From NCBI GenBank assembly GCA_964362175.1, contig CAYIDD010000005.1:44-64043 (forward strand): 64,000 bases of DNA, read 5' to 3'. Positions within the stretch are counted from its first letter, which is position 1, and each line of letters opens with the position of its first letter. Below the pieces are notes generated by a model, which was given only the letters and a program-made list of their open reading frames with translations, was not told where the DNA came from and ran no database searches. The stretch is from an uncultured Candidatus Saccharibacteria bacterium (GTDB taxonomy: Bacteria; Patescibacteriota; Minisyncoccia; Phycocordibacterales; UBA2100). Of the stretch, positions 1 to 41,084 are shown in pieces. The position numbers were made by a program, and so were the translations under genes.

Positions 1-596
1 GTTGTGCCGCCCGCGCGGCGGAGGTCCTGCGCGCGGGCGGCGTGGTGCTGTATCCGACCGATACGCTCTACGGACTCGGCGTGGATGCGTTTTCGGATGC
101 TGCTGTTGCAAAGGTCTACGCAATAAAGGGTCGTGAGGAGGGGAAGCCGATACATGCGATCGTTTCTGATCTTGAAATGGCAGGGAAGTATGGAGACGTT
201 ACAAACGACGCGACGCGTTTGGTTGCGCAACTTCCGAAGGGCTTGTTGACGCTGATAGTAAAAAAGAAAGATGTTCAAAGCGGTATAGCAAAAGACATCG
301 AAACGTTCGGATTCCGCATTCCCGGCAATGATCTCTGCAGAGAGCTGGTACGGGCATTCGGGGGCCCCGTCACTGCCACGAGCGCAAATAAAAGTGGGGA
401 AGTGCCGGAGCGGTCTGTCGAAAAAATCCTTGAGCAGCTTGGAGGGGGTGCGAAGTATGTCGACCTCGTGATGGACGCGGGGGAGTTACCCCGGCGGGAA
501 CCCTCTTCGGTCGTTGACCTCTGCAGCCCTGAACCCGCTGTCCTGCGCGAGGCGGCCGTTTCGGCGCAGGAAATAAGGTCTATTTTGGGTCATTGA
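1..596 (+). CDS. tsaC: L-threonylcarbamoyladenylate synthase (TsaC/YrdC/Sua5 family), 5' end cut by window edge
   Basis: Reading frame is open from nt 3. Translation ...AAEVLRAGGVVLYPTDTLYGLGVDAF... and ...VTATSANKSGE... match YrdC-fold motifs. Stop at 594-596. Confidence 0.8.
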   Translation, partial: CAARAAEVLRAGGVVLYPTDTLYGLGVDAFSDAAVAKVYAIKGREEGKPIHAIVSDLEMAGKYGDVTNDATRLVAQLPKGLLTLIVKKKDVQSGIAKDIETFGFRIPGNDLCRELVRAFGGPVTATSANKSGEVPERSVEKILEQLGGGAKYVDLVMDAGELPRREPSSVVDLCSPEPAVLREAAVSAQEIRSILGH

Positions 597-4760: not shown

Positions 4761-4778
4761 GAGCTTGTAATGCTGGCG

Positions 4779-4943: not shown

Positions 4944-4994
4944 TCGATGCTAACATAGCGAGCCGCGGGTATAAAGGATAAAATCAGCTCACGT

Positions 4995-5687: not shown

Positions 5688-5796
5688 CTACCGTTGATAA
5701 GACCATAGAGCGCGACTGAATTATTGGGCTCTTTTGAGGGCTTATCGTACATGCGCTGTATGTACGCTGTAGCACCCCTTTCGGCAGAATTATGAG

Positions 5797-5988
5797 GTGG
5801 AACAGAGCACCGATGACAAGCTGGCCGAGAGCGCAAGCTCAGAACTTTCTTTTGATGCCTTCAAAAAAGCGCTCGGGTCCGCTGCTCTAAAATACTCGGA
5901 TACGGAAATTGAGCGCATGCGGGCCGTCTGCGATAAGTTTGCGGATGCCTTCTTTGACGGTTGGCTTAAGCGACGAAACGAGCAATAA
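5797..5988 (+). CDS. small acidic hypothetical protein (63 aa) immediately upstream of recombinase 1
   Basis: ORF MEQSTDDKLAESASSEL...; helical and acidic. Position is consistent with a recombination accessory or directionality factor, but this is speculative. Confidence 0.3.
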   Translation: MEQSTDDKLAESASSELSFDAFKKALGSAALKYSDTEIERMRAVCDKFADAFFDGWLKRRNEQ

Positions 5989-6022
5989 TGGGCAGGAAGG
6001 GCTCGACGATTATTACAAAAAC

Positions 6023-7726
6023 ATGGAAAAAAGCACCGAGGGAGAGTATTGCATAATTCACTGTCGAGTGAGTTCAACCAAACAATCTCAGGAGGGTGAG
6101 AGCTTGGATGTGCAAGCGGGCATCTGCCGCGCCATTGCCGTTCAGAATAAATGGCCACTCGCTCATGAGCCGTGGGAAGAGAGCTTCTCAGGGCGTAAAA
6201 GTACTCGGCCAATCTTTGAAGAAGTGTTGGCATTTCTGGATGCACATCCAGGTAAAGTACGCCGCTACATTTTTCGCTCGATTGATCGCTTTACACGCGG
6301 CGGCTCATTCTCATACGAAACGATGAAGCGCGAGCTTACAAAGCGCGGGGTAGCGATGGTGGATAGCTATGGAGTAATTCAAGCTTCAAAAAACACTCTT
6401 GAGGATTTGGGGATTGAGTATGACTGGAGCAGGTACTCACCGAGTGAAATGACAGAGTCGCTTCTCGCGACGAATGCTAAACAGGAGGTTACTGGCATCC
6501 TTACCAGGATGATCGGGCAGTCAATCCGATTAACCAGGCAAGGGTATCGAGCGCGTCGAAGTACAGACGGGTTTAAGAATGAGCGGGTGTTCGTCGAGGG
6601 GAAAAAGAAGGTCATACAGGTTCCCGATAAGGAGCGGGCCCGCTTTTTTATTGCGATGTTTGAATTGCGAGCGCTGGGCCAACTTACAGACCCTGAGATA
6701 GTCGAGAGAGTGAATGCGATGGGATACCGTTCTCCGTATCAAAATAAGTACAATCACGAAAAGACCAAGATCGTCGGGCGGAGAGGCGGAGTTCCGCTGA
6801 CTGTAAAGCAACTCCAGCGCATCATGCGGAATACAATCTATGCTGGAGTCGCATGCGAAAAATGGACAAACTACAAACCAATCCATCAACAGTACGACGG
6901 TCTTGTTACGGTCGAGGTTTTCAATCGAGCCAATAGAGGAGAGTTCGCCATTATGACGGATGAGAGCGCAGAGCTCACAGTCGTTCGCGGCAAATCAAAG
7001 ACGGGCACGGAACGAGTAAGAAATAACCCGCTCTACCCCTTCAAGTTCATTCTGTGTCCTTTGTGCGAGAAACCCAAAACCATGCTTGGCAGCGCACCAC
7101 GCGGCAAGCTGGGTAAAACACATCCCACTTACCACTGCGCTCGTACACACAAGTATTTCGGTATTCCTAAAAAGGACTTTGAGGAGAGTGTGGCGAAGTA
7201 CATCAAGAGTTTGAAGTTCCAACCCGATTTGCTTAATGGCTTGGAGGCAACGTTCCTTAACAAGTATCGTAAACGTGAGAAAGAAATTGTCAGAGCATCA
7301 GGCCAAATACACTCGCACATAGGCGAGCTCGAGGCGCGTCAGGCCTCAAAACTTGAGGCGTTTGAAGCAACAAAGAGTCCCGTGCTCCGAGGAAAGCTGG
7401 AAAGAGAAATAGAAGATCTTGAGGTCCAGATCAAGCAGGCGGGTAAACAACGCCTGAAGATACAGATCACGCGAAATGATATTAAGGCCTTTATGCGAGA
7501 TGCGAAAGCGATAATGGAACACCCCGCTGAAATCCTCCTAAACCCAAAGGATATAAAGGTCCAACAGGAATTATTCGGGTTAGTTTTTGAGAAAATGCCG
7601 ACCTACTCGGAAATTGTTAATGGAACACCTAAATTGTCCTACGCCTTCGCGCTTTCTTCGACATTTACACCAGACAAAAACCAATTGGTGACCCTACCGG
7701 GAATCGAACCCGGATTAACGGCTTGA
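6023..7726 (+). CDS. large serine recombinase (resolvase N-terminal domain + recombinase domain + zinc ribbon + coiled coil)
   Basis: Start at MEKSTEGEYCIIHCRVSSTKQ, where the catalytic Ser lies in the RVSS context. Zinc ribbon CPLC...HCA. The last 38 nt read antisense through tRNA-Glu (tail VTLPGIEPGLTA). Confidence 0.85.
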   Translation: MEKSTEGEYCIIHCRVSSTKQSQEGESLDVQAGICRAIAVQNKWPLAHEPWEESFSGRKSTRPIFEEVLAFLDAHPGKVRRYIFRSIDRFTRGGSFSYETMKRELTKRGVAMVDSYGVIQASKNTLEDLGIEYDWSRYSPSEMTESLLATNAKQEVTGILTRMIGQSIRLTRQGYRARRSTDGFKNERVFVEGKKKVIQVPDKERARFFIAMFELRALGQLTDPEIVERVNAMGYRSPYQNKYNHEKTKIVGRRGGVPLTVKQLQRIMRNTIYAGVACEKWTNYKPIHQQYDGLVTVEVFNRANRGEFAIMTDESAELTVVRGKSKTGTERVRNNPLYPFKFILCPLCEKPKTMLGSAPRGKLGKTHPTYHCARTHKYFGIPKKDFEESVAKYIKSLKFQPDLLNGLEATFLNKYRKREKEIVRASGQIHSHIGELEARQASKLEAFEATKSPVLRGKLEREIEDLEVQIKQAGKQRLKIQITRNDIKAFMRDAKAIMEHPAEILLNPKDIKVQQELFGLVFEKMPTYSEIVNGTPKLSYAFALSSTFTPDKNQLVTLPGIEPGLTA

Positions 7727-7762
7727 AAAGCCGGCGTCCTAACCATTAGACGATAGGGCCAC
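7689..7762 (-). tRNA. tRNA-Glu (anticodon TTC)
   Basis: Hand-folded. Acceptor gtggccc/gggtcac. Anticodon loop ttTTCaa. T-arm ccggg-ttcgatt-cccgg. One c-t mismatch in the anticodon stem. Confidence 0.65.
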
Positions 7763-7911: not shown

Positions 7912-8919
7912 ATGGCGTTGCATAGCACCACAGGTTTTAAACCCGTCGCCGCGGCCTTGATCGGTAACACGCTTGTCACCATCGTTAAGTTTTCTGCGGC
8001 AATGGTCTCCGGTTCCAGCTCGATGTTCTCCGAAGCGGTGCATAGTTTCGCCGACACACTCAACCAGCTTCTGCTCCTGATCGGGTTGCGCCGCTCGCTC
8101 AGGAAGGCGGATGACGATTTTGAGTATGGCTACGGCAATGAACTTTCGTTTTGGGCGCTTATTTCCGCGTGCGGGATATTTTTTGTCGGCGCAGGTGTCA
8201 CGGCATATAACGGCATTACCTCATTCCTCGATCCGCACCACATAGAGATATCGCCGCTGGTATTCGGGGTTCTTCTTTTGGCTCTCGTGATCGAGTCTTA
8301 CACACTCTGGGTCGCCGCCACGCAATTGATAACATCATTCCCCCGCTCGAAGTGGGGGAAACGGCTGGCACAGGCCGATCCCTCGACGCTTGCCGTTTTT
8401 CTCGAGGACGCGGTGGCGGTAATCGGCGTACTCGTCGCGATCGTGAGCATTTCGGTCTCGTATTACACGGGAAATTCTGCGTGGGACGCTGCGGGCTCGG
8501 TCGTTATTGCGTCCCTTCTCGCTGCGGTCGCTGTTGTCCTTATCGTCAAAAACCGCTCGTATCTTCTCGGCCGCTCGATACCCGAAGGGCTGCAGGAAGA
8601 ATTGATCGACCTTCTTCAGAGTGAGCCGGCGATAGAAAAAGTCCTCGATTTCAAATCGGTCGTGCTGGGGTTCGGCATCTACCGCATCAAATGCGACGTG
8701 GAATTTAACGGTGCGGCGCTTTTTGGAGAGGCGTATCAGCAATCGTCACTTCGCGACCAGTATGAAGAAGTGCGCGACGACTATGAATCCTTCAAAAGAT
8801 TTTGTGCGGACTACGCCGACCGCATTCCGCGCTTGATGGGTAAGAAGATAGACGAGATAGAAGCGCGGATAAAAAAGCTGCACCCGGGTATCAAACACAT
8901 AGATATAGAGATCAATTGA
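7912..8919 (+). CDS. cation diffusion facilitator (CDF) family metal efflux transporter
   Basis: 335 aa. HSFADTLNQ motif. Six predicted TM helices plus a C-terminal cytoplasmic domain. Starts 4 nt after tRNA-Ser. Confidence 0.8.
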   Translation: MALHSTTGFKPVAAALIGNTLVTIVKFSAAMVSGSSSMFSEAVHSFADTLNQLLLLIGLRRSLRKADDDFEYGYGNELSFWALISACGIFFVGAGVTAYNGITSFLDPHHIEISPLVFGVLLLALVIESYTLWVAATQLITSFPRSKWGKRLAQADPSTLAVFLEDAVAVIGVLVAIVSISVSYYTGNSAWDAAGSVVIASLLAAVAVVLIVKNRSYLLGRSIPEGLQEELIDLLQSEPAIEKVLDFKSVVLGFGIYRIKCDVEFNGAALFGEAYQQSSLRDQYEEVRDDYESFKRFCADYADRIPRLMGKKIDEIEARIKKLHPGIKHIDIEIN

Positions 8920-32663: not shown

Positions 32664-32671
32664 TTTTTGTG

Positions 32672-32753
32672 TGGGCAGGGCGAGACTCGAACTCGCACCC
32701 CTTGCGGGACTAGGTCCTAAGCCTAGCGCGGCTACCAATTACGCCACCTGCCC
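32672..32753 (-). tRNA. tRNA-Leu (anticodon TAG), class II
   Basis: Acceptor gggcagg/cctgccc. Anticodon stem ctagg/cctag with loop ctTAGga. Long variable arm. T-arm gcgag-ttcgagt-ctcgc. Confidence 0.75.
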
Positions 32754-32894
32754 GTGCCCCTATCCTAGCATTTTGTCCGCCAGTGGGGCGAGATTGGACC
32801 GTCCCCGGTTCTTCGGGTCTGAAAGTGTGACGGGCTGATTTCGAAACACAGCGAGAGAAATAATGGCACCTATGGCGTTATCCACAATGTCCCT

Positions 32895-33734
32895 TTGTGG
32901 GGTGCTATGATGTACCCAATGAATCCGAATAAAGCATTGTGGGAGAAAGGAGATTTTACTGAGATCGCGGCCTTCATGCGTCAGTCCGGAGAAACACTCA
33001 TTAAGTCGCTCGGCATAACGCCGCCGCTGCGGGTCTTAGATCTCGGTTGCGGAGACGGCACTACCGCGATTCCTCTAGCCCTCTTGGGGGCTGAAGTTGT
33101 TGGGATCGACATCGCCAAGAACCTCGTCGACGCCGGAAACAAACGCGCTGTCGAGGCAGGTCTCAGCCAACTGACATTTCAAGAAGGTGATGCGTGCAAC
33201 CTGCAAGGAATCAGCGACCACTCATTTGATCTGACCATTTCTATATTCGGCGCCATGTTTGCTCCCAAGCCGTTCGACGTAGCCAAGGAGATGGTCCGTG
33301 TCACAAAACTGGGGGGCCGCATTGTGATGGGTAACTGGATCCCGAACGACCCAACCTCATTCGTGTCGCAATTGCTGAAGATAAGCGCAGCGTTTACGCC
33401 TCCGCCTCCGGAAGGCTTCGTGAGTCCCATGACGTGGGGTGTAGAAACTCACGTCATCGAACGTTTTGGTCAGGCCGGGGTTCCCAAGGAAAAGATATCG
33501 ATGGTCAAGGATACGTACTCCTTCATATCGAAGGACAAAAGCCCCGCAGAATTCGTTGAATTATTGGAACGATTCTATGGTCCGACAATGAACGCCGTCG
33601 AAGCGGCTCAAAAGAATGGAAAAGCGGATGAGCTCCACAGCCAACTTTTGGAGCTGGCGAAAGAGCAGAACAAGAGCACGGACGGCAGCACTTCAATACC
33701 CGCTACCTTCATGAGGGTGACCATTAACCTCTGA
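32895..33734 (+). CDS. class I SAM-dependent methyltransferase
   Basis: 279 aa. Motif I VLDLGCGDGTTAIPLA. Motif post-I VVGIDIA. Confidence 0.75.
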   Translation: MWGAMMYPMNPNKALWEKGDFTEIAAFMRQSGETLIKSLGITPPLRVLDLGCGDGTTAIPLALLGAEVVGIDIAKNLVDAGNKRAVEAGLSQLTFQEGDACNLQGISDHSFDLTISIFGAMFAPKPFDVAKEMVRVTKLGGRIVMGNWIPNDPTSFVSQLLKISAAFTPPPPEGFVSPMTWGVETHVIERFGQAGVPKEKISMVKDTYSFISKDKSPAEFVELLERFYGPTMNAVEAAQKNGKADELHSQLLELAKEQNKSTDGSTSIPATFMRVTINL

Positions 33735-33750
33735 GGCTGATTGAGGATAA

Positions 33751-33963
33751 TGGTGTCGGGTATCGTATTCACGACGGACCTACTTTCGACACTTTCCGAG
33801 CGTGGGGCTTATCTTCGAGCTCAGTAAACAATTCGAGCTTGGAAACTATGATTTAGTCCGCCTAACTATAGACCATTGGAACGCGCTCATCCAAGAAATG
33901 GAACAATGGCGAGGCATTACTAACGGGACAGATTTTGCCTTATCTTCCGAATCTCGCGTTTAA
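33751..33963 (+). pseudogene. start-less fragment homologous to the 3' end of large serine recombinase 2 (C-terminal tail variant)
   Basis: Frame open from the stop at 33748-50, with no start codon. Translation ...VSYSRRTYFRHFPSVGLIFELSKQFELGNYDLVRLTIDHWNALIQEMEQWRGITNGTDFALSSESRV*. Recombinase 2 has ...IAYSRGMGFGIARMGLIFELSKQFELGNYALVRPVGFEPTTVRLRGDCSTN*. Confidence 0.45.
33804..33862. repeat. 59-bp direct repeat (55/59 identical to 40959-41017), left boundary of integrated element 2
   Basis: ggggcttatCttcgagctcagtaaacaattcgagcttggaaaCtatgAtttAgtccgcc versus attR ggggcttatAttcgagctcagtaaacaattcgagcttggaaaTtatgCtttGgtccgcc. 32-bp identical core. The last ~9 nt correspond to the tRNA-Lys 3' end. 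Confidence 0.6.
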
Positions 33964-36448
33964 ACGACTCAGGCAGTTCTATAACTGATAGGTCTACAGT
34001 TGAGAGCCATTGAGTCGCTTGCTCCTCGTTAAGAGAAGGATTGCCAACCATCTTAGACAGTTCTGTGGCTACATGTCTGCTGAAGCCCATATTGATAAAT
34101 GAGACTTGCGTCATTTCTGATACTCCGAACTCAACCCACGTTCTAATATCTGGTATTTGTGCTAACAGTTCAGTTCTACCTGTTTGCTCGAAGAAATATC
34201 GGAGGGTATCTAAATAACACGTGATGTATTTCGCGAATCCAAAACGAATATCGTCTTCTATATTACGCATGGTATCTCGGATAACTACAGGAAGACGAGG
34301 GCTTCTGCCATGCTCCTGTAAATACTTGAAGTAATCCACGATTATCCTTGGCAAGGGGTAGCCGCGCATCCAAACAACCGCTAGCAACGCCTCTCGATAT
34401 GAGCTTATACTTTTTGTGTTTGGAGGTGCGAGATGTGTATTAACTCGACTGACAATTCGGTTGTAATCGCTCACTGCCGTTTGAGCGGCGACAGAAGGCG
34501 GCGGCAACAATTCTTCTACGTTCTCGTGTCCTTGGAAGTAATCATAAAGTCGTTTTACAGCAAGAGGACTAATGCCTGGATTTCGTTGAAAGATTTCCCG
34601 TGGCAACTGGACGTTTTCCCTGATTTTCCCTAACAGACTGATAAGTTCGTCCGAGAATATGCTGCTGTAATCGCCATCTAAGTATTTAAGAAAAAAGTAG
34701 CTCAACGCGTACTCCATATTCGCATCTCGAATATTGGCATCTTCGGCATGCTCGGCGACAAATTCAAGGAATGATGACCCCTCTCCAGTGATTTCAACAA
34801 GTGATTTCTTTATCTCATAACGACGTTCGCCCCAGAGAGGCTTATGCGTCCATTCTTCAGGTTCTATACAGAAAATATTTCCTTGAAAATCTTTGGAGAG
34901 TCTGCCTGCTCGTCCCGCCAAGTTCCAAAAATCCGCTTCTGACATCGGATTGCCACGACCACGAGATGGATTGGTAATGAAAATCGCTTTTGCCGACAGA
35001 TTCACTCCCTCTAGTAAAGTTGATGTGCAGACTAAATATTTAATAGCTCCCTCTCGGAACAATCTTTCAATTTCACGTCTAACCAAAAGCGGCATATTTC
35101 CGTAATGAAAAGCGACACCATAGGGCAATACTTGCGGTAGTGCATAGTGCGGATGAATAAGTCTTTTTGAGAGGTCTATCAACTCATCGAATGACGACTC
35201 ATCCTTTTCAACACCCATTTGTCTCAATTCATCTGCAATGCTTTGTGCGATTCTCTCAGCACTAGCTGCTCCAGATGCATATACCAAATTTCCACCGTCC
35301 TTACTCAGTAAGATTGGTAGCTTGCTACATTTCTTAGCAATTGTACCAAGAGTTTGTTCAAGTACGATTTTTCCTAAAGGAATAGATTGGGTCTTTAAGC
35401 AAAGCGTAATGTCCCATTCTTTGGGTTTACGAGGTACTTTAGAGAGCCAAATGAGGTTTTGGTTTACCGCCACATAATCCGTTAGAATGCTTACGCCCGT
35501 ATCTGAGTTCGATATTCCTAAAAGTATCTCAGGATTTCGGGAGAATGCGCTACAGAAGAGCACTCGCGAGGACGGATTAATACGCTGAACCTGCTCCACT
35601 TTCTCCTGCAGTAAAATACCACGTTGACCATCTCCTATCTTTTGTGCCTCATCAACAATTAGCAGGTCGACGGAATAGTCTGGATTATCCGTGAGAAACC
35701 AATGCAGTCTCTCCTGCGTGAAGACAAAGAGGTGATTTGAGTTCTTGTATTGGACTGGGGGCAATTTCGGGACTGAGCTTATGTAGACATTCTTTTCTAG
35801 ACCATATTCTGTGAGACTTTCATTGAAGCGGTCTTCCACTTCGTTAATAAGAGCACGAGTTGGGACGATATATACGATATGTGATGTTCTATCTGATTCT
35901 GACAAGGCTTTTGCGACAATGAGACTAAGCACGAACGACTTTCCAGCCGATGTCGGCGCGGAAGCACTTACTGTATTCTGCTCTCGTGCGGCAATATAAA
36001 GTTGTCTCTGAAATTTATTCAAATACCTAGTGTCGTTAACAATCTCAACTGTATGCAGTTGGTCGCGCCACATTTTCTCGACGAGAAGAGGACGCGGAAT
36101 GTCCTCCTCATAATTTTCGGGAATGTATTCTTTTTCTATAGCAAGATTAATCGCGGGCGCATTTGTCAGTTTCCCAAAAATAATCGCTGCTGCAACGTGA
36201 TATGACGGGTCAACCGCAGTCGTGAGACAGTATTGTGCGATGCGTAATGCCGCATCCTGACACTCCGCATCGTTTGCTTGCGCTAAAATGCTTCCGCAGA
36301 GAAGCATGTAGTTCCAGTCAATGTTCGGCTGCTGGTGGTCGTCAGAAAATCTTGTTGGCAAACTACCGAGAACGGAGGCATGGAGTATACTGCTAAATTC
36401 GTTTCTGAATTCTTGCAGTCCAAGTATTTTGCGTGCCAATTTGTCCAT
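33920..36448 (-). CDS. superfamily 2 DExH-box helicase (Ski2-like; HamB-like candidate)
   Basis: 842 aa. Motif I APTSAGKS, Ia IVPTRAL, II LLIVDEAQ, VI NLAGRAGR. Characteristic YGVAFHYGNMP...LVCTSTLLEGVNLSA RecA2 region. Confidence 0.8.
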   Translation of the reverse strand: MDKLARKILGLQEFRNEFSSILHASVLGSLPTRFSDDHQQPNIDWNYMLLCGSILAQANDAECQDAALRIAQYCLTTAVDPSYHVAAAIIFGKLTNAPAINLAIEKEYIPENYEEDIPRPLLVEKMWRDQLHTVEIVNDTRYLNKFQRQLYIAAREQNTVSASAPTSAGKSFVLSLIVAKALSESDRTSHIVYIVPTRALINEVEDRFNESLTEYGLEKNVYISSVPKLPPVQYKNSNHLFVFTQERLHWFLTDNPDYSVDLLIVDEAQKIGDGQRGILLQEKVEQVQRINPSSRVLFCSAFSRNPEILLGISNSDTGVSILTDYVAVNQNLIWLSKVPRKPKEWDITLCLKTQSIPLGKIVLEQTLGTIAKKCSKLPILLSKDGGNLVYASGAASAERIAQSIADELRQMGVEKDESSFDELIDLSKRLIHPHYALPQVLPYGVAFHYGNMPLLVRREIERLFREGAIKYLVCTSTLLEGVNLSAKAIFITNPSRGRGNPMSEADFWNLAGRAGRLSKDFQGNIFCIEPEEWTHKPLWGERRYEIKKSLVEITGEGSSFLEFVAEHAEDANIRDANMEYALSYFFLKYLDGDYSSIFSDELISLLGKIRENVQLPREIFQRNPGISPLAVKRLYDYFQGHENVEELLPPPSVAAQTAVSDYNRIVSRVNTHLAPPNTKSISSYREALLAVVWMRGYPLPRIIVDYFKYLQEHGRSPRLPVVIRDTMRNIEDDIRFGFAKYITCYLDTLRYFFEQTGRTELLAQIPDIRTWVEFGVSEMTQVSFINMGFSRHVATELSKMVGNPSLNEEQATQWLSTVDLSVIELPESFKREIRKIRQNLSR

Positions 36449-36457
36449 AAGGCATAC

Positions 36458-37423
36458 TCAACGCTCTAAGGCGCGAGTTAAGGCTTCGCGAAATTTTGCT
36501 ACCGAAGGCAGAGGAAGGATAAATAAGTGTATAACTATGGTCTCAACTTTTTGACTCTTTATTTCGGCATGGATTTTTTCAATCCATACGCTTAGGCTTT
36601 CGACTATGGCCTTTTTAACAGCTTCTACGTTGCCCGTATTTTGGACGGATGGGTAATGTTCGAAATCAAAACCAACGAGCCCAATTCCACGATAATTCAC
36701 TCGATTCGCTAAAGGTGAATCTTTTTTAAGATAACGTATCAGTGCCGACTCCAAATTCTCATCAGCAATATTTTCTGCGAGGTGGTCATGTGCCAACTGC
36801 AAATCTCTTTCTCGGCGTTCTGCGCCACCATCTACAAGAAGATAGGCGGATAAATCTTTAATGCACTCTTTAATGGCTGTTGCGGGATTTTGCTGGAGTT
36901 TTGACTCACACCAATACAGACATAAAATTGGTTCTTTACCCTCGTCATTCTCAATGGACAAGTGAATACCGTCAGAGCCGTGCACGGGCATTTCTGAGTT
37001 TGTCTTGAGAGGCATTTTGCACAGCAGTTGAGGGTACTTGAGGAATTCCTGAGCCATAAGATACAGGAGCAATTCACCACCCTCGCCAGATATACCCGTG
37101 GACTTAAATAACCCCCGTGCTGTCTTTTGTAATGCTGCAACTTTTCGGGTGGTGTTGTGCTTTGTATCGTAAGCTTTTGCTTCTGCGATTTTTGAGCGAG
37201 GAATTGCAAAATCAGCAGCGTTTGTAGCTAGGAAATCTGCCAAATCGTCAATCGGGGGCATGCCGTTCCCGTCCAATTCCAAAACGTAGCAGTGCGATGT
37301 TGCCCTTGTCGCCCCGACAACAACATTTACTTCTATTTCGGAGAAATATCGAGATAATTCAGCCTCACTGGTACTAAGTAAGCCACCCACTTCTCCTTTG
37401 AGGTCGTTGGATGACTTATTCAT
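36458..37423 (-). CDS. hypothetical protein with PD-(D/E)xK-like motif (HamA/DUF1837-like candidate)
   Basis: 321 aa, 9 bp upstream of the helicase. ...VHGSDGIHLSIENDEGKEPILCLYWCESKL... fits D...ExK nuclease spacing. GELLLYLMAQEFL segment. Size and gene order match Hachiman hamA-hamB. Confidence 0.4.
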   Translation of the reverse strand: MNKSSNDLKGEVGGLLSTSEAELSRYFSEIEVNVVVGATRATSHCYVLELDGNGMPPIDDLADFLATNAADFAIPRSKIAEAKAYDTKHNTTRKVAALQKTARGLFKSTGISGEGGELLLYLMAQEFLKYPQLLCKMPLKTNSEMPVHGSDGIHLSIENDEGKEPILCLYWCESKLQQNPATAIKECIKDLSAYLLVDGGAERRERDLQLAHDHLAENIADENLESALIRYLKKDSPLANRVNYRGIGLVGFDFEHYPSVQNTGNVEAVKKAIVESLSVWIEKIHAEIKSQKVETIVIHLFILPLPSVAKFREALTRALER

Positions 37424-37477
37424 GAATAAAGCCTACTCCAAACCACGAATATAAACAAATGGCAACAAAGTCGGCTC

Positions 37478-37648
37478 TCAATCAAATTTCTTTGAGAAAG
37501 TGGCGACGTTTTGTTTCTTTCTGTGAAAATAAACTTCTAAGGCTAACTCGGCCATGTCGTAAAGTGCCTTCCTGAGCTCATCAATTTCTTGGTCAGAGAG
37601 TTTGTTGCTATCGGGTATTAACTCGCGGCATTTTTCTAGAGAAAGCAT
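37478..37648 (-). CDS. small hypothetical helical protein (56 aa)
   Basis: ORF 37478-37732. Start placed at MLSLEKCRELIP to avoid overlap with the upstream gene. Confidence 0.3.
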   Translation of the reverse strand: MLSLEKCRELIPDSNKLSDQEIDELRKALYDMAELALEVYFHRKKQNVATFSKKFD

Positions 37649-37650
37649 AC

Positions 37651-37944
37651 CTATACTGTGAAGAAGACAGAGGCAGAGCCTAAAACAATCAAGATATTCG
37701 CCACCGCGTATATCGTAATTACATGCCACCAATTGTCGCCTGACTTAAGGGATTGGTACGAGGCAATAATTCCGGTAATAGCTGAAACAAGAGCCGTCAG
37801 AATCATCGCGTAGTACGAAATGCCAGCCACGACGATTTTCAGAGCGTCCTTAAGGTACGGCCATTCGTTTACAGACGAGAGAATGGACACGAATAAAATA
37901 CAGAGAGCCAAAGAGAACAAGCTTATTTTTAGGTATTTGTTCAT
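37651..37944 (-). CDS. small membrane protein (3 TM, 97 aa)
   Basis: MNKYLKISLFSLALCILFVSILS... has three hydrophobic helices. Holin-like size and topology, but this is speculative. Confidence 0.45.
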   Translation of the reverse strand: MNKYLKISLFSLALCILFVSILSSVNEWPYLKDALKIVVAGISYYAMILTALVSAITGIIASYQSLKSGDNWWHVITIYAVANILIVLGSASVFFTV

Positions 37945-37974
37945 AAGTCAACGACTAATTAAGGGGCGAGTAAT

Positions 37975-38190
37975 CTAAATTCCCTGAGCGTCGAGAAAGT
38001 CAGGCTTAGCATTATCTTGCTGCTGCTCGTAAGACTTTTCTTCCAAGTGAGCGCAAAGACTCGGATTGCGCGAACAATCTATCACAGTTGGTTTCGCTCT
38101 ATTGCTAGGGTCTTCCAGCAAACCCCCGAAGGTAAACCACAGAATAAAGAGCCCGAAGAGTACGCCTGCTATGAGTTTCAAATTCTCCAT
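37975..38190 (-). CDS. small secreted protein with signal peptide and two Cys
   Basis: 71 aa. MENLKLIAGVLFGLFILWFTFGG signal. Immediately downstream of structured repeat copy B. Confidence 0.45.
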   Translation of the reverse strand: MENLKLIAGVLFGLFILWFTFGGLLEDPSNRAKPTVIDCSRNPSLCAHLEEKSYEQQQDNAKPDFLDAQGI

Positions 38191-38207
38191 AAAAAAACGC
38201 TAGCTAA

Positions 38208-38397
38208 TAATGCTAGCGGGAGTGCAACACTAAACCCCGCGCCAGCTAAGCCTTGCGGCCCCACACCCCTTTCGGGATATGGCTCATGGAAGAGTCGCTG
38301 AACGCGGGGTTCAGTACCTTCCATGAGTCTTTTCGACCATGCCACCAGACGTTGGTGGGTTAGGTCGCGCCCTTACGGGCTGATATTGGGTGTGTAA
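38208..38397. repeat. structured repeat element, copy B (homolog of 4779-4943)
   Basis: Perfect 10-bp stem ctcatggaag (38283-38292) / cttccatgag (38318-38327) encloses ...gctgaacgcggggttcag.... Upstream aaccccgcg is complementary to cgcggggtt. Shares aacactaa(a/g)ccccgcgccagcta, gccttgcggccccacaccc and tattgggtRtgtgtaa blocks with copy A. Confidence 0.6.
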
Positions 38398-38595
38398 AAG
38401 CACTATATCATCACACGGAAAAACACACAGAAAACAGGTGCGTGCAAGGAGGTTTAGGATTATCCAAATGCTTGGATAGAGCCATATAAGGCGTCTGTAG
38501 GTCAAAAAAGGAGGTAGGAGGGGTACGGGGACCAAAACCCTGATTAAAACTACATACCACCGTCCCTCGACAAATTTTATATATATTTTTGTAGG

Positions 38596-38651
38596 TCTTA
38601 ACTTGAAGCCTTAACAGGATATTTAAACGCCATTAACTCAGGCTCTTAAAC
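38596..38651. promoter_or_regulatory. AT-rich region with iteron-like TTAAC-N9-TTAAC repeats upstream of the HTH/recombinase genes of element 2
   Basis: tcTTAACttgaagccTTAACa and atTTAACtcaggctcTTAAAc, about 14 bp apart. Further gcttgacttagagcc nearby. Confidence 0.3.
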
Positions 38652-38892
38652 AAAGCATTCTTTTTGTGCTATATCCTAAAATAGCTTGACTTAGAGCCAT
38701 ATTTTTGATAGGATTAGAGCATAAGATTATTAGCTAATAGGTTCATTTGAAATGGGATGATTTCTCTCGAAAAAACGCGAGAGCTCCTAAATGAAGCATC
38801 ATCTGTACAACTCCAAGATAAAGAAGTTGCGGCATTCCGCGATTCCTGCGCGGCATTAGCTCGTATTTTTGTGGACACGGTTTTAGAAGAAC

Positions 38893-39291
38893 TTGGGAGC
38901 CAACCCAAGGCTAATTAAACACGCAAATATGAGCAAACCAATTACAGGTCTATTCGTTCCAAAAGCAATACTGTTAGATGGTAATTTAGGTTCATCACAA
39001 AAACTGCTTTTTTCGGAGATTCATCACCTTTCTGGAAGTGAAAGAGGATGTTACGCCGGAAATAATCATCTCGGAGAAATGATTGGATTATCTAGCGCAC
39101 AAGTAAGCAGAATTATTTCTGGGTTACGGCGGTCAGGCTATATCCGATGGGAACTCGCTGAAGAAGAAGTGACGCGACGAAGAATGTACTCCACTCTCGA
39201 AAGAGATGACGAGGACGCAGAAGTTAATGATGTAGCAAGGGAATACGCGGATAGGGAGAGGGACTTCGACTTTTCCGATGAGGGGGTATAA
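38893..39291 (+). CDS. small HTH (winged-helix-like) DNA-binding protein with acidic tail (element 2)
   Basis: 132 aa. ...HLGEMIGLSSAQVSRIISGLRRSGYIRWE... looks like helix-turn-helix. Acidic C-terminus DDEDAEVND. Confidence 0.5.
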   Translation: MGANPRLIKHANMSKPITGLFVPKAILLDGNLGSSQKLLFSEIHHLSGSERGCYAGNNHLGEMIGLSSAQVSRIISGLRRSGYIRWELAEEEVTRRRMYSTLERDDEDAEVNDVAREYADRERDFDFSDEGV

Positions 39292-39498
39292 GCAGGACCG
39301 CTCAACGAAGATAATAGTAGAGACAATAGTTAAATAATACTCTCACTACTCCCAGCTTCGCTGGGAACGAACGATAGTTCGTTAGTGGCACTACTAAATC
39401 TTTAGTCTTAACCAACTCGATATTATCTATCCCTGTACAGCTCTACAAACAATGGCCGCGGCTAGGATTATCCAGAAGTGTTATTCTTAAAGTACGTT

Positions 39499-41073
39499 AT
39501 GAAAGCAATCATCTACACTCGTGTCAGCAGCGATGAACAAATCAAAGGCACTTCTCTTGCAGACCAAGAGCGTCGGTGTACTGCCTACTGCGAGGAAAAC
39601 GGATACGAGGTACAGGCTGTGTTTCGCGAGGAAGGCGCGTCAGCAAAAACAGCAGACCGGAAGGAGCTCTTTAGCGCAATGGAGTTCTGTCGTACACACA
39701 AGGGCGAGATAGATTTCTTTGTGGTCTTCAAGCTCGACCGCTTTGCACGGAATGTTTCCGACCACTTCGGCGTCAGGAAAAGTCTCAAAGAGTACGGAGT
39801 TGAGTTGAGGTCTGTGTCGGAGCAATTAGGCGATGAACCGTCTGAGAAGTTTATGGAAGCTGTTATCGCGGCGGCCTCTGAGTACGATAATGGCGTTCGT
39901 ACACAACGAGCCACTAATGGCATGGTGGCAAAGATACGCGAGGGTATATGGCCATGGAAAGCCCCCTTGGGCTATGTTCCCAATCCGAAGCGGGTATTAG
40001 GAGGAAAGAAAAATATGCCTGATGTTCCGGACCCTGCTACTTTCTCGATACTACAAACAGCTTTCAGAGAGTACGCACAGGGTGAACATACTCCAATAAG
40101 TCTTGGACGCAGACTTGATGCGCTTGGATTAGCTGCGATTAGAGGCAAGCAAGCGTCATCTCAGTTCATTCAGCAGTTATTAGTGGAGCGACGCATAAAG
40201 TTTTATGCGGGGAAGCTGATTACAGACCTTAATGGAGAAAATGAGGTGCAGGGCTTACACCAGCCGATGATAACTGAGACCGAATGTGCGAGCATGATTG
40301 GATATATCCATGGCAAGAAAAAGCCAGTTCAACGCCATGCATTAGTTAACCCTAATTTCCCTCTAAAGGGCGGTACAGTCCTTTGTGGCGCATGTACGAA
40401 GCCTCTGACGGGTAGTACAACGCGAGGTCGAAGTGGTTTGCACCCTTACTACCACTGCTACAACAAGCAGTGTGAGATGTACGGAAAGATTACTCAGAAA
40501 GATGTCCTAGAAAACGATTTCCTGACCTTACTAAATAAAGTTGCTCCTTCTGGAAAGTTTATTGCCTATTTCAAGAAAGCCGTGATTGATGAGTGGGAGA
40601 ATCGAGTCGGACAGATAAAGGATGTACACAAGGAATACGAGGAGAGCCGTCGTAAACTTAACGAAAGTCTAGACCGCATAAAACAGCTTCTTGAAGACGG
40701 CACTTACAGCCGCGCAGAGTATCTAGAGCGTAAGCAGAAGATTGAAAACGGATTGATGACAACGGGAATATCTGAGAACGAGTCGCACATTGAACAAATG
40801 GACATTGAGGCATTGCTTACTAAAGCAACAGAGTTCCTTACCTCGTTGGGCGAGCACTGGAAGAAAATGCCACCGACTGTACGGCCAAGATTCCAAAAGC
40901 TGGTCTATCCAGACGGAATTGCTTACTCTCGCGGTATGGGATTTGGAATCGCACGAATGGGGCTTATATTCGAGCTCAGTAAACAATTCGAGCTTGGAAA
41001 TTATGCTTTGGTCCGCCCAGTAGGATTCGAACCTACGACCGTTCGCTTAAGAGGCGACTGCTCTACCAACTGA
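39499..41073 (+). CDS. large serine recombinase (element 2)
   Basis: Start MKAIIYTRVSSDEQ, with the catalytic Ser in the resolvase domain. Zinc ribbon CGACTKPLTG...HCYNKQC. Coiled coil. The last ~65 nt read antisense through tRNA-Lys (tail VGFEPTTVRLRGDCSTN). Confidence 0.85.
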   Translation: MKAIIYTRVSSDEQIKGTSLADQERRCTAYCEENGYEVQAVFREEGASAKTADRKELFSAMEFCRTHKGEIDFFVVFKLDRFARNVSDHFGVRKSLKEYGVELRSVSEQLGDEPSEKFMEAVIAAASEYDNGVRTQRATNGMVAKIREGIWPWKAPLGYVPNPKRVLGGKKNMPDVPDPATFSILQTAFREYAQGEHTPISLGRRLDALGLAAIRGKQASSQFIQQLLVERRIKFYAGKLITDLNGENEVQGLHQPMITETECASMIGYIHGKKKPVQRHALVNPNFPLKGGTVLCGACTKPLTGSTTRGRSGLHPYYHCYNKQCEMYGKITQKDVLENDFLTLLNKVAPSGKFIAYFKKAVIDEWENRVGQIKDVHKEYEESRRKLNESLDRIKQLLEDGTYSRAEYLERKQKIENGLMTTGISENESHIEQMDIEALLTKATEFLTSLGEHWKKMPPTVRPRFQKLVYPDGIAYSRGMGFGIARMGLIFELSKQFELGNYALVRPVGFEPTTVRLRGDCSTN

Positions 41074-41084
41074 GCTATGGGCGG
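41009..41084 (-). tRNA. tRNA-Lys (anticodon CTT), CCA encoded
   Basis: 76 nt. D-arm gctc-agttggtag-agc. Anticodon loop ctCTTaa. T-arm gtagg-ttcgaat-cctac. 3' ACCA present. Confidence 0.8.

What the first reader, a model, noticed from the sequence alone, without database searches (positions are those of the whole stretch)
33804..41017. Integrated element 2 (~7.2 kb) at tRNA-Lys, flanked by 59-bp direct repeats
The segment between the 59-bp repeats (33804-33862 and 40959-41017; 55/59 identical; 32-bp perfect core) is visibly lower in GC than its surroundings. It carries a large serine recombinase next to tRNA-Lys(CTT), an HTH protein, a Hachiman-like cassette, small membrane and secreted proteins, and structured repeat copy B. 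The right repeat includes the last ~9 nt of the tRNA. Large serine recombinases normally need no long att homology. The repeat may therefore reflect restoration of the tRNA 3' end, an SCC-like arrangement, or a remnant of an earlier tandem insertion, rather than a classical att core duplication.
Basis: partly seen in the sequence, partly recalled or inferred. Interest (0 to 1): 0.7.

Follow-up and report, generated by a model that had tools for sequence, protein, structure and literature searches.

The report
Recombinase island docked on tRNA-Lys
A 7.2-kb mobile island carrying a Hachiman anti-phage system sits at the very tip of a tRNA-Lys gene, and the serine recombinase that put it there has its own attachment site inside the end of its own gene, an arrangement I found described only for archaeal tyrosine integrases.

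Summary
In detail: repeat, GC trough, tRNA-Lys, large serine recombinase (LSR), HTH protein and a complete Hachiman pair. Relatives (Kaiserbacteria-like Patescibacteria) have 31-350 bp, at most 2.4 kb, between tRNA-Lys(CTT) and tRNA-Leu(TAG). The window has 8,256 bp there, so this is an insertion.

The left repeat continues in the same frame into a conserved C-terminal helix (WNxxIxEMxxW). So attP lies inside the LSR gene, and integration swaps its last 33 codons.

The true crossover core is 7 bp (GTCCGCC, at tRNA positions A73/C74). The attP right arm carries TTGGAAC 5 bp farther out than the tRNA T-loop TTCGAAC, the published attP/attB signature of serine integrases.

Seven other complete elements share only 4-9 bp cores. 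The extra 52 bp of the left repeat is therefore the 3' arm of a recombinase gene belonging to a neighbouring 1.1-kb methyltransferase unit, in a tandem (SCC-like) array.

The "structured repeat" is LOOT RNA, a recurrent part of these elements.

What the tail swap does to the enzyme is inferred, not shown. Interest 0.75; a new variant of a known kind.

The parts
32671..32753 (-). tRNA-Leu(TAG). In relatives it is the immediate neighbour of tRNA-Lys(CTT), so it marks the outer edge of the ancestral locus.
   Evidence: Lys-to-Leu(TAG) spacing is 31-350 bp in six relatives with both genes in the window's orientation and at most 2.4 kb in the 12 scanned, against 8,256 bp here.
32775..32800 (+). Outer, old attL. 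Core GTCCGCC (32775-32781) lies 21 nt from tRNA-Leu(TAG) and is followed by a degenerate attP right arm with TTGGAC at +19.
   Evidence: The context cATTTTGTCCGCCa resembles gATTTAGTCCGCCt at 33850. A chance 7-mer on this strand within a 100-bp target has a probability of roughly 0.006.
32782..33803 (+). Recombinase-less unit carrying a SAM-dependent methyltransferase gene (32895-33734). It is the first member of the tandem array.
   Evidence: Pfam Methyltransf_11/25. No homologue at this locus in any relative. GC 0.515-0.53.
33804..33855 (+). Left repeat, arm part: the last 52 bp upstream of the core of a recombinase gene (encodes GLIFELSKQFELGNYDL). It is the attP-type left arm belonging to the methyltransferase unit.
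   Evidence: The 59-bp left repeat containing this arm (33804-33862) is 93% identical to the element's own recombinase 3' end and 80% to that of L002. Differences are 3 synonymous and 1 nonsynonymous. There is no recombinase similarity left of 33803.
33856..33862 (+). attL core GTCCGCC, the true crossover region.
   Evidence: Cores of 4-9 bp at the same codon (the V of ..LV..) occur in L094, L095, L102, L111, L152, L162 and L002.
33863..33963 (+). attP right arm, which is also the native C-terminal 33 codons of the recombinase (LTIDHWNALIQEMEQWRGITNGTDFALSSESRV*). It carries TTGGAAC at +20 from the core.
   Evidence: In frame with the recombinase (offset 7155 = 3 x 2385). It matches the WNQIIxELxxW tails of 53 homologues. 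W512, N513, E518, L519 and W522 are at least 90% conserved. Predicted helix 512-538.
33920..36448 (-). HamB, the Hachiman helicase (cargo).
   Evidence: PADLOC HamB1 E 3.4e-262 over 3-839 of 842 aa. Pfam DEAD and Helicase_C.
36458..37423 (-). HamA, the Hachiman DUF1837 effector (cargo).
   Evidence: Pfam HamA E 4.7e-55; PADLOC HamA1 E 3.2e-102.
37478..37732 (-). Small ORF. From M at 37645 it belongs to a small-protein family (xSLExxRELxxxxxLSDxE..) that is also conserved in the cassette arrays of L168.
37651..37944 (-). 97-aa hydrophobic protein, a backbone gene shared with the L002 and L004 elements.
   Evidence: tblastn 38% identity to L002 and L004 element genes. No Pfam hit.
37975..38190 (-). 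71-aa hydrophobic ORF immediately downstream of LOOT on the same strand.
   Evidence: No convincing homology to the equivalent ORFs in L002 and L004.
38248..38366 (-).
   Evidence: 78.2 bits against a gathering score of 46.4. The same RNA occurs upstream of the recombinase in the tRNA-Glu element, in L002 and L004, and in about 20 further recombinase loci.
38757..38918 (+). 53-aa ORF of the same small-protein family, first gene of the rightward HTH-recombinase module.
38893..39291 (+). HTH protein (HTH_36-like; probable start ATG 38929). Backbone gene upstream of the recombinase.
   Evidence: Pfam HTH_36 E 8e-5. 48-52% identity to the equivalent gene in L002 and L004. The L002 copy shows weak DnaD_N similarity.
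39499..41073 (+). Large serine recombinase in its integrated form (524 aa). Its last 18 codons are antisense tRNA-Lys (..LVRPVGFEPTTVRLRGDCSTN*).
   Evidence: (P0001, 100% identity).
40959..41010 (+). Right repeat, arm part: the attP left arm, inside the recombinase ORF. TTCGAG lies at -24..-19.
41011..41017 (+). attR core GTCCGCC, the reverse complement of tRNA-Lys positions ..GGCGG-A73-C74.
41009..41084 (-). tRNA-Lys(CTT), intact; the attB right arm. Its T-loop TTCGAAC lies at about +15 from the core.
   Evidence: ARAGORN; Rfam tRNA 70.5 bits; consensus of 35 attR sites.

Best explanation
The segment is a small integrative island (7,155 bp between the cores at 33856 and 41011) in a Kaiserbacteria-like Patescibacterium. 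It carries a complete Hachiman defence pair as cargo. Its conserved backbone is a small hydrophobic protein, LOOT RNA, an HTH protein and a large serine recombinase (LSR).

The LSR inserted the circular element at the extreme 3' tip of the tRNA-Lys(CTT) gene, at discriminator A73 / C74, so the mature tRNA stays whole. The element-side site (attP) lies inside the LSR's own coding sequence, about 33 codons before its natural stop. The attP right arm imitates a tRNA acceptor/T-arm: it has TTGGAAC, which is also the W-N codons, 5 bp farther from the crossover than the T-loop TTCGAAC in the tRNA. That offset is the geometry by which serine integrases tell attP from attB.

Integration therefore cuts the LSR gene in two. 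The gene next to the tRNA keeps residues 1-506 and acquires a meaningless antisense-tRNA tail. The conserved native C-terminal helix is left 7 kb away at attL. Excision would rebuild the native gene.

The 59-bp direct repeat is not the att core. It is 7 bp of true core plus 52 bp of LSR 3' coding sequence (an attP-type left arm). That arm belongs to a neighbouring, recombinase-less 1.1-kb methyltransferase unit lying between tRNA-Leu(TAG) and the island. The locus is thus a two-member tandem array: either a decayed older element or a cassette mobilised in trans.

Shown: the insertion, the anatomy of the sites, the two states of the gene, and the family-wide geometry. Inferred: that the tail swap changes LSR activity or directionality, that the element is still mobile, and the order of insertion in the array.
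For: Insertion. Six relatives with both genes in the window's orientation have tRNA-Lys(CTT) 31-350 bp from tRNA-Leu(TAG), and none of the 12 scanned exceeds 2.4 kb. The window has 8,256 bp, and none of the seven relatives whose sequence downstream of tRNA-Lys was read has LSR-like sequence there.

Gene split. The LSR ORF reads through the right repeat into antisense tRNA. The left repeat is in the same frame and continues as LVRLTIDHWNALIQEMEQW.... Of the 120 closest homologues, 59 end in antisense-tRNA peptides (GFEP, RIEL...) and 53 end in the conserved LVDx5WNQIIxELxxW tail. P0024 (native tail) and P0148 (tRNA tail) are 99% identical over residues 1-500 and diverge exactly after that V. 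A syntenic relative (L002) has a different 6.3-kb element at the same tRNA-Lys, with the native tail at its attL and only a 7-bp core.

Geometry. The consensus of 20 native sites has TTGGAAC at +20..26. The consensus of 35 attR sites has TcGAAC at +16..21. The 5-bp inward shift of the zinc-ribbon motif in attB is published for LI integrase (PMC3783163). Cores of 4-9 bp overlap only at positions 0-2 of the V codon, which places the crossover at A73/C74.

LSR identity. Pfam Resolvase. The AlphaFold model has pLDDT 82 with a coiled coil at 352-429 and a tail helix at 512-538. Foldseek matches SPbeta, Bxb1, PhiC31 and LI integrases at E down to 1.5e-15.

Tail under protein-level constraint. E518, L519 and W522 are at least 90% conserved, 39-53 nt from the core, beyond an LSR half-site.

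Tandem array. Left-arm identity is 46/50 here, against 10-18/50 in six other complete elements. L111 holds two full elements in tandem, the upstream LSR carrying a native-type tail. A third core with a degenerate TTGGAC arm is at 32775. The methyltransferase is absent from relatives. L168 and L171 show arrays of recombinase-less units bounded by the same kind of site, with one unit present or absent.
Against: No excised circle, empty-site allele or second copy from the same species was available. P0001 is on one contig only. A search for the circular junction in viral contigs found nothing.

Roughly half of the homologues keep the native tail while sitting on long chromosomal contigs, up to 2 Mb. 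Integration through the intragenic site is therefore not the only state in which the family resides in chromosomes. Arrays explain some of these cases (L111, L168, L086) but not all that were inspected (L085, L116).

The attB left arm shows no conserved motif, which is unusual for a serine integrase. Canonical serine integrases do not recombine attP with attL or attR, yet building the array requires such a reaction or a cointegrate.

The third core at 32775 rests on a 7-mer plus a 6-mer offset by 1 bp. Part of the WN conservation is a DNA-level constraint, so the tail's protein function is not proven.
Confidence: 0.75

Rival explanations
1. The 59-bp repeat is itself the functional attachment site. 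attB in this lineage naturally carries about 50 bp downstream of tRNA-Lys that matches the element, and recombination (site-specific or homologous) needs that long identity, as with tyrosine-integrase islands.
For: The repeat has 55/59 identity with a 32-bp perfect run, and mismatches lie on both sides of the run, as expected for a crossover inside it. 59 bp could support RecA-dependent recombination.
Against: None of seven relatives with an unoccupied tRNA-Lys has this sequence downstream. L002, at the same tRNA with a 68%-identical LSR, has only a 7-bp core and an unrelated left arm. Six other complete elements have 10-18/50 left-arm identity. The 52 bp are LSR coding sequence in frame, with mostly synonymous differences. 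No tyrosine recombinase is present.
Confidence: 0.07
2. The left 52-bp arm is simply the stump of a once complete older element, whose LSR and backbone were deleted. Under this reading the methyltransferase segment is dead debris, not a mobilisable unit.
For: The arm codes for the LSR peptide, with 3 synonymous and 1 nonsynonymous differences. This suggests divergence while it was part of a working gene. L111 shows the undeleted equivalent. The outer attL arm at 32775 is degenerate: its tail ORF is lost and TTGGAC is shifted by 1 bp. The unit lacks the about 70-aa ORF conserved in the L168 cassettes.
Against: The boundary at 33803/33804 is sharp and leaves a full-length attP-type half-site intact, more than a random deletion endpoint needs to. 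Recombinase-less units bounded by such arms do exist in this family. The two readings differ only in whether the unit can still move. Both are tandem arrays.
Confidence: 0.35
3. The island is a fixed fossil. Losing the native C-terminal helix inactivates the LSR, as with archaeal 'suicidal' integrases, so the element cannot excise without a second, intact copy. The arrangement then has no regulatory role beyond locking the element in.
For: The tail residues E518, L519 and W522 are highly conserved, so their loss could matter. The archaeal parallel is described in PMC8371274. No circular form was seen.
Against: Residues 1-506 are kept, so all catalytic and DNA-binding domains and the coiled coil are retained. 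The ORF is intact with invariant R8 and S10. attL and attR keep identical cores. The same LSR is found at several different tRNAs (P0111 cluster) and in both states, which indicates recent mobility in the family.
Confidence: 0.3

Closest known systems
Phage and ICE large serine integrases (Bxb1, PhiC31, SPbeta SprA, A118/LI integrase)
   Same: Same enzyme architecture: resolvase domain, recombinase domain, zinc ribbon with an inserted coiled coil. Short att sites and a tiny crossover core. An attP arm motif 5 bp farther out than in attB (PMC3783163).
   Different: The target is the tip of tRNA genes. Many different tRNAs are used across the family: Ala, Glu, Lys, Tyr, Arg. One 90% cluster shows several different tRNA tails. 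The attB half-site is the conserved acceptor/T-arm. attP lies inside the integrase ORF, so the enzyme's C-terminus changes with integration state. The attB left arm is not conserved. No phage genes are present, and there are very few relatives in viral contigs. The Islander paper (2015) stated that serine integrases were not known to target tRNA genes (PMC4383910).
SSV1-type 'suicidal' tyrosine integrases of archaeal viruses and plasmids
   Same: attP is inside the integrase gene. The target is a tRNA gene. Integration splits the integrase gene, and excision restores it (PMC8371274).
   Different: Those are tyrosine recombinases, reported as exclusive to archaea, and the split separates the enzyme into two large parts. 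Here a bacterial serine recombinase exchanges only its last 33 of 539 codons.
SCC elements (CcrAB/CcrC serine recombinases at the 3' end of rlmH in staphylococci)
   Same: Serine-recombinase islands inserted at the 3' end of a conserved gene without inactivating it. They stack into tandem composite arrays separated by repeated att sequences and include recombinase-less members.
   Different: A different recombinase lineage and target. In SCC the att site is not inside the ccr gene. Here the repeated unit includes part of the recombinase coding sequence.
Integration-dependent immunity of mycobacteriophages (BPs, Brujita, Charlie)
   Same: attP inside a phage gene, so that integration changes the C-terminus of the encoded protein and thereby its stability or activity. 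(From my own knowledge; the term appears in the papers listed.)
   Different: There the gene is the repressor and the integrase is a tyrosine recombinase. Here the affected gene is the serine recombinase itself. An ssrA-like -LAA ending occurs in only about 10 of 53 native tails and not in this element.
Integrons
   Same: In non-CPR relatives (L168, L171), a recombinase gene heads a directly repeated array of about 1-1.4-kb single-gene units. Each unit is bounded by the same recombination site, with presence/absence variation.
   Different: The recombinase is serine-type, not IntI. The sites are attP-like arms that overlap the recombinase's own 3' end. Each unit carries a conserved about 70-aa ORF. 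There is no attC hairpin.

Membership tests
Large serine recombinase (serine integrase) | N-terminal resolvase catalytic domain with the catalytic serine and conserved arginine | tested here: met
   Pfam PF00239 E 6.5e-31 over residues 10-157. R8 and S10 are invariant in alignments of 48 and 51 homologues. PDB sequence hits are 3guv and TP901-1 3bvp.
Large serine recombinase (serine integrase) | C-terminal recombinase domain plus zinc ribbon domain with an inserted coiled coil | tested here: met
   Zn_ribbon_recom scores 23 bits, just below the cut-off of 25.3. The AlphaFold model has a beta ribbon at 294-320 and 474-482 and a helical hairpin at 352-429. Foldseek gives full-length matches to SPbeta (9dxd, E 1.5e-15), Bxb1 (9iu2), PhiC31 (9rah) and LI (4kis) integrases.
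Large serine recombinase (serine integrase) | attP and attB with a very short crossover core and the zinc-ribbon motif 5 bp closer to the centre in attB | tested here: met
   Cores are 4-9 bp. TTGGAAC lies at +20..26 in 20 attP-type sites, against TcGAAC at +16..21 in 35 attR sites. The rule is from PMC3783163. This is sequence inference only.
Large serine recombinase (serine integrase) | Catalyses attP x attB recombination through a 2-bp staggered cut | not testable with these tools
   Needs a recombination assay.
Hachiman defence system | Adjacent HamA (DUF1837) and HamB (superfamily 2 helicase) genes | tested here: met
   HamA: Pfam E 4.7e-55, PADLOC E 3.2e-102. HamB: PADLOC E 3.4e-262. Both are full length, on the same strand and 9 bp apart.
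Hachiman defence system | Confers phage resistance | not testable with these tools
Classical tRNA-gene genomic island (Islander type) | Tyrosine integrase encoded on the island | tested here: not met
   The only recombinase is serine-type.
Classical tRNA-gene genomic island (Islander type) | Integration inside the tRNA, with a displaced tRNA fragment as the direct repeat | tested here: not met
   Only 7-9 nt of the tRNA tip are repeated. The rest of the repeat is recombinase coding sequence.
SSV-type 'suicidal' integrase module | attP located within the integrase ORF, so that integration splits the gene | tested here: met
SSV-type 'suicidal' integrase module | Tyrosine recombinase of archaeal elements | tested here: not met
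   This is a serine recombinase in a Patescibacterium.
SCC-like composite array | Several units in tandem at one att site, separated by repeated att sequences | tested here: met
   Three co-oriented cores lie at 32775, 33856 and 41011, bounding a 1.1-kb unit and a 7.2-kb unit. The outer site is degenerate.
SCC-like composite array | Ccr-family recombinases and an rlmH target | tested here: not met
   The target is tRNA-Lys, and the element carries a single recombinase gene rather than a ccrAB pair. Its relationship to Ccr proteins was not tested directly.
LOOT RNA (Rfam RF03000) | Score above the family's gathering threshold against the covariance model | tested here: met
   78.2 bits against 46.4, covering the full model 1-121.

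The most novel reading that the evidence does not exclude
This island belongs to a widespread, undescribed class of serine-recombinase elements, abundant in Patescibacteria and also present in Omnitrophota and Smithella-like bacteria. These elements recognise the universal acceptor/T-arm of tRNA genes by carrying a T-arm mimic inside the recombinase's own reading frame. Integration, excision and stacking therefore rewrite the enzyme's conserved C-terminal helix. That rewriting would act as a built-in, state-dependent switch of recombinase activity or direction, a bacterial serine-type counterpart of archaeal 'suicidal' integrases. The same site chemistry builds tandem and integron-like arrays of recombinase-less cassettes, and LOOT RNA is a dedicated component of these elements.
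Probability: 0.4. Interest if true: 0.85.

Novelty: new variant of a known kind. Interest (0 to 1): 0.75.

Why it matters
Serine integrases are prized genome-engineering tools because they need only short sites and no host factors. A family that docks on the conserved tip and T-arm of tRNA genes would offer natural landing pads in almost any genome. One 90% cluster appears at several different tRNAs.

Biologically, three points stand out. It would extend tRNA-gene targeting to large serine recombinases, which were stated in 2015 not to do this. It would give a bacterial counterpart to the 'attP inside the integrase gene' design, reported in 2021 as exclusive to archaea. It suggests a way to control direction through a swap of the enzyme's own C-terminus rather than, or in addition to, a separate directionality factor.

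It also shows how streamlined CPR bacteria acquire defence systems (here Hachiman) on 5-11-kb islands. And it gives the orphan LOOT RNA a genomic home that makes its function testable.

Tried and rejected
1. A tblastn hit suggested that recombinase similarity at the left end extends back to 33568. This was rejected. The nucleotide alignment shows no similarity left of 33803, and the frame contains stops.

2. I looked for a long repeat at the same tRNA in the syntenic relative L002. There is none, only a 7-bp core.

3. I tested whether the 50 bp downstream of tRNA-Lys is native chromosome. It is absent from seven unoccupied sites.

4. An ssrA-like degron idea for native tails is weak. Only 10 of 53 end in -AA, and this element's tail does not.

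5. A sequence search of the PDB found only the catalytic domain. The full architecture needed a predicted structure and a fold search.

6. I tried to explain all native-tail homologues on chromosomal contigs as tandem arrays. This works for L111, L168/L171 and L086. L085 has no second site, and L116 has no recombinase remnant before its downstream tRNA-Ser. These remain unresolved.

7. The small ORF downstream of LOOT is not a conserved protein across elements.

8. Literature on LOOT: nothing beyond the family name in the text held.

9. Five literature searches on serine recombinases or integrases at tRNA genes or with an intragenic attP found no description of this arrangement. The library lacks most subscription papers.

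10. The exact circular-junction sequence was not found in viral contigs, and only four distant relatives (27-33% identity) were found there.

11. A loose DNA motif for the attP arm is not specific on its own: 10 hits against about 12 expected by chance. Only hits at the predicted positions were used.

Full report
OBSERVATION

- The two repeat copies (33804-33862 and 40959-41017) are 55/59 identical with a 32-bp perfect run, or 56/60 if one more base is counted.
- GC falls to 0.43-0.475 between 34 and 41 kb, against 0.52-0.58 outside.
- tRNA-Lys(CTT) is at 41009-41084 on the minus strand, and its last 9 nt lie inside the right repeat.
- The cargo is a complete Hachiman pair: HamA 36458-37423 and HamB 33920-36448, both on the minus strand, with full-length PADLOC matches at E 3e-102 and 3e-262.
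- The recombinase (39499-41073, +) has a Resolvase domain (E 6.5e-31) and a weak zinc-ribbon hit.
- An AlphaFold model of the recombinase has pLDDT 82. It shows the full large-serine-recombinase (LSR) layout, including a long coiled coil at 352-429. It matches SPbeta, Bxb1, PhiC31 and LI integrases over its whole length.
- 'Structured repeat copy B' is a LOOT RNA (Rfam RF03000) at 38248-38366(-).

HOST AND EMPTY SITE

The flanking IF-2 gene is 77-82% identical to genes on contigs labelled Kaiserbacteria, Nomurabacteria or 'Saccharibacteria', so the host belongs to the Patescibacteria. These relatives share the backbone ClpB ... IF-2, RbfA, tRNA-Cys, tRNA-Leu(TAA), tRNA-Lys(CTT), tRNA-Leu(TAG), pilin-like genes, a solute-binding protein.

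Six relatives with both genes in the window's orientation have tRNA-Lys 31-350 bp from tRNA-Leu(TAG). None of the 12 relatives scanned exceeds 2.4 kb. The window has 8,256 bp (32754-41008). Downstream of the unoccupied tRNA-Lys genes there is nothing resembling the repeat. The tRNA gene ends GGGCGGAC followed by unrelated sequence, and CCA is not encoded.

The inserted DNA also includes the methyltransferase gene 32895-33734, which has no counterpart at this locus in any relative.

The recombinase ORF does not stop before the repeat. It runs through the repeat and 65 nt into the antisense tRNA, ending ...GLIFELSKQFELGNYALVRPVGFEPTTVRLRGDCSTN*.

The left repeat lies in the same frame (offset 7155 = 3 x 2385). 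It continues as ...GLIFELSKQFELGNYDLVRLTIDHWNALIQEMEQWRGITNGTDFALSSESRV*.

I searched with the joined (circular-form) protein. Among the 120 best homologues:
- 59 end in peptides that are translated antisense tRNA (GFEPxT, RIELLT, GIEPR ...);
- 53 end in a conserved tail LVDx5WNQIIxELxxWQxL, which matches the sequence at the window's left end.

In an alignment of 51 native-tail proteins that are only about 45% identical overall, W512, N513, E518, L519 and W522 are at least 90% conserved. The model predicts a helix at 512-538.

Two proteins of one 90% cluster, P0024 (native tail) and P0148 (tRNA tail), are 99% identical over residues 1-500. They part exactly after the V of ..SLIV.

So attP lies inside the recombinase gene, and integration exchanges the last 33 codons.

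CONFIRMATION IN OTHER LOCI

- The syntenic relative L002 has a different 6.3-kb element, with no Hachiman, at the same tRNA-Lys. Its native tail (LVRLTIDDWNALIQELEQW...) is at attL, and only GTCCGCC is shared between the ends.
- In metagenome contigs, L094, L095, L102, L152 and L162 are complete elements of 8-11 kb with cores of 4-9 bp. Their left arms are unrelated, usually a terminator-like hairpin.
- The tRNAs used include Ala (three anticodons), Glu (two), Lys, Tyr and Arg.
- One 90% cluster (P0111) is fused to at least four different tRNA tails.
- The window's other low-GC segment is built the same way. A distant serine recombinase (5909-7726, 25% identity) ends ...KNQLVTLPGIEPGLTA* inside tRNA-Glu(TTC). 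Its attL at 2593-2596 is followed by ...YLEWNTLETMVIRW.

SITE GEOMETRY

I aligned all sites on the V codon.
- Twenty native sites give ...AAAAATCcc.TtTG|GTGGACttc.CgcTcA.taaTTGGAACCAgAT.
- Thirty-five attR sites give ...|GTGGaCC...ggGGA.TcGAACccc.

The T-loop hexamer of the tRNA and its look-alike TTGGAA (the W-N codons) are 5 bp apart in register. In the window this reads GTCCGCC+13 nt+TTGGAA at attL and GTCCGCC+8 nt+TTCGAA at attR. The tRNA-Glu element shows 17 against 12 nt.

For LI integrase the zinc-ribbon motif of attB is shifted 5 bp toward the centre relative to attP. This shift is what sets the coiled coils for attP x attB synapsis (PMC3783163).

The left arm of attP carries TTCGAG (window) or TTCCAA (L095) at -24..-19, symmetric to +20..25 about the G|T of the V codon. 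The shortest cores (GTAG in L094, GGTG in the tRNA-Glu element) overlap only at positions 0-2. The crossover is therefore at the reverse complement of A73-C74. The mature tRNA is untouched, and the element contributes CA and a new trailer.

These are sequence inferences. No cleavage site was mapped.

THE 59-BP REPEAT

Left-arm identity between attL and attR is 46/50 in the window, against 10-18/50 in six other complete elements. Long homology is therefore not a property of the system.

The extra 52 bp (33804-33855) are recombinase coding sequence. The 59-bp left repeat that contains them (33804-33862) is 93% identical to the element's own gene and 80% to that of L002. The differences are three synonymous and one nonsynonymous. 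Similarity stops sharply at 33803.

L111 shows what this means. Its attL is a whole second recombinase gene (1569-3095) with a native-type tail, followed by a second element whose recombinase is fused to tRNA-Glu. It is a tandem pair, and each member has its own LOOT RNA.

In the window a third co-oriented core (GTCCGCC, 32775-32781) lies 21 nt from tRNA-Leu(TAG), exactly where the outermost attL should be. It is followed by TTGGAC at +19, a decayed right arm.

The locus reads as follows: tRNA-Leu(TAG) | spacer | core | methyltransferase unit ending in a 52-bp recombinase-type arm | core | Hachiman island | core::tRNA-Lys.

Whether the 1.1-kb unit is the stump of a full element or a recombinase-less cassette moved in trans is open. 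Such cassettes exist in the family. In L168 a native-tail recombinase is followed by four units of 0.96-1.45 kb. Each is bounded by ...cctctgtttcgtg|GTGGTCTTTGCGTTCxCCCATTGGAACCAG and each carries a conserved about 70-aa ORF. L171 lacks one unit.

BACKBONE AND CARGO

The window island, L002 and L004 share the following:
- a 97-aa hydrophobic protein (38% identity);
- LOOT RNA on the minus strand;
- an HTH protein (48-52% identity; HTH_36, and the L002 copy has weak DnaD_N similarity);
- the recombinase.

A covariance model built from four LOOT copies finds LOOT-like RNAs in about two dozen recombinase loci. Nearly all lie on the strand opposite the recombinase and upstream of it.

A small-protein family (xSLExxRELxxxxxLSDxE...) occurs twice in the island, at 38757-38918(+) and 37478-37645(-). 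It is the conserved ORF of the L168 cassettes. It and the HTH protein are candidates for directionality or replication functions, but that is conjecture.

The family is nearly absent from viral contigs, and the islands carry no structural or conjugation genes.

MECHANISM, WITH STATUS OF EACH STEP

- Shown: the insertion; the intact tRNA; the LSR fold; the position of attP in the ORF; the two gene states; the 5-bp offset; small cores; tandem stacking in the family.
- Inferred with good support: the crossover at A73/C74; the tRNA acceptor/T-arm serving as the attB half-site; the 52-bp arm belonging to a neighbouring unit.
- Inferred with weak support: that loss of helix 512-538 changes activity, stability or direction; that the island can still excise; the order of insertions; any role for LOOT, the HTH protein or the small protein.

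Caveats:
- Canonical serine integrases do not pair attP with attL or attR, yet arrays require that reaction or a cointegrate.
- The attB left arm shows no conserved motif.
- Many native-tail genes sit on long chromosomal contigs that arrays only partly explain.

COMPARISON AND NOVELTY

The enzyme is a member of the large serine recombinases. All sequence and fold features that could be tested were met.

The system works like the archaeal SSV-type 'suicidal' integrases: attP inside the integrase gene, a tRNA target, and the gene split on integration. It is not a member of that family, because those are tyrosine recombinases and were described in 2021 as exclusive to archaea (PMC8371274).

[quoted passage not shown] A small resolvase-like recombinase of phage phiRSM is cited; that it targets a tRNA gene is from my own memory. 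A few large serine recombinases occur in Prochlorococcus tycheposons and cryptic elements.

Five literature searches found no description of a T-arm mimic inside an LSR ORF, of the C-terminal swap, or of LOOT's association with such elements. The library is incomplete, so prior description cannot be excluded.

VERDICT

A real, well-delimited LSR island with ordinary cargo (Hachiman) and an unusual, apparently undescribed attachment design. The 59-bp repeat is explained as core plus a neighbour's arm in a tandem array. It is a new variant of a known kind; interest 0.75.

Noticed in passing
window 2593-7760: A second island of the same design, about 5.1 kb. The attL core GGTG at 2593-2596 is followed by a WNTLETMVIRW tail ORF. 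It holds a PG_binding_1 protein (3864-4760, -), LOOT RNA (4804-4922, -), an HTH_11 protein (4995-5687, +) and a distant serine recombinase (5909-7726, +; 25% identity). The recombinase ORF ends inside antisense tRNA-Glu(TTC) at 7686-7760. The 5-bp TTGGAA/ATCGAA offset holds here too.
   Followed up: partly
window 38248-38366 and 4804-4922; L002 8664-8780; L004 2157-2276; L111 1111-1216 and 7927-8045; about 18 further loci: LOOT RNA (Rfam RF03000; to my knowledge no function has been assigned) is a recurrent component of these recombinase islands. It almost always lies on the strand opposite the recombinase, 0.1-4.5 kb upstream, with one copy per element even in tandem arrays. A small ORF follows it on its own strand, but that ORF is not conserved.
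   Followed up: partly
L168 11498-16480; L171 11498-14950; L086 and L087 11498 and 12725: In non-CPR relatives (Smithella-like and other contigs), a native-tail recombinase is followed by a direct array of 1-1.4-kb units. Each unit starts with a copy of the recombinase's C-terminal tail sequence and ends with a conserved arm plus a conserved about 70-aa ORF. One unit is present in L168 and absent in L171. This resembles an integron built on a serine recombinase.
   Followed up: partly
L086 and L087, about 8850-8900: Sequence shared by two contigs with different left flanks begins exactly at an antisense tRNA 3' half (TGGTGCCCCTGGGGCGATTCGAACGCC...). ARAGORN does not call it a tRNA. It lies about 1.1 kb upstream of a native-tail recombinase. 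Its role (captured attB arm, or docking site) is unexplained.
   Followed up: no
L010, L012, L028, L065 (relatives of the window's locus): tRNA-Lys(CTT) is inverted relative to its neighbours in several related genomes. In L012 and L028, tRNA-Leu(TAG) is inverted as well. This could reflect past recombinase-mediated inversions at this hotspot.
   Followed up: no
L002 5304-5333: Directly after the native-tail stop codon at attL of the L002 element lies a tRNA-Leu-like T-arm fragment (GAGGTGGGACTCGAACCCACA). It may be a trace of an earlier integration at another tRNA.
   Followed up: no
proteins P0008, P0018, P0033, P0037, P0038, P0043, P0044, P0063, P0101, P0115: About a fifth of native recombinase tails end in -LAA or -AA, like the ssrA degradation tag. 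The window's tail does not.
   Followed up: partly
window 41009-41011 compared with L006, L013, L024, L028, L036, L037, L055: The unoccupied tRNA-Lys genes of relatives do not encode CCA. In the window the CCA is completed by element DNA (GGGCGGAC|CAAAGC).
   Followed up: yes
window 37478-37645(-) and 38757-38918(+): Two copies of a small-protein family (M[IL]SLEKxRELxxxxx..) lie on opposite strands within the island. The same family is the conserved ORF of the L168 cassettes and also occurs in L121 and L123.
   Followed up: partly
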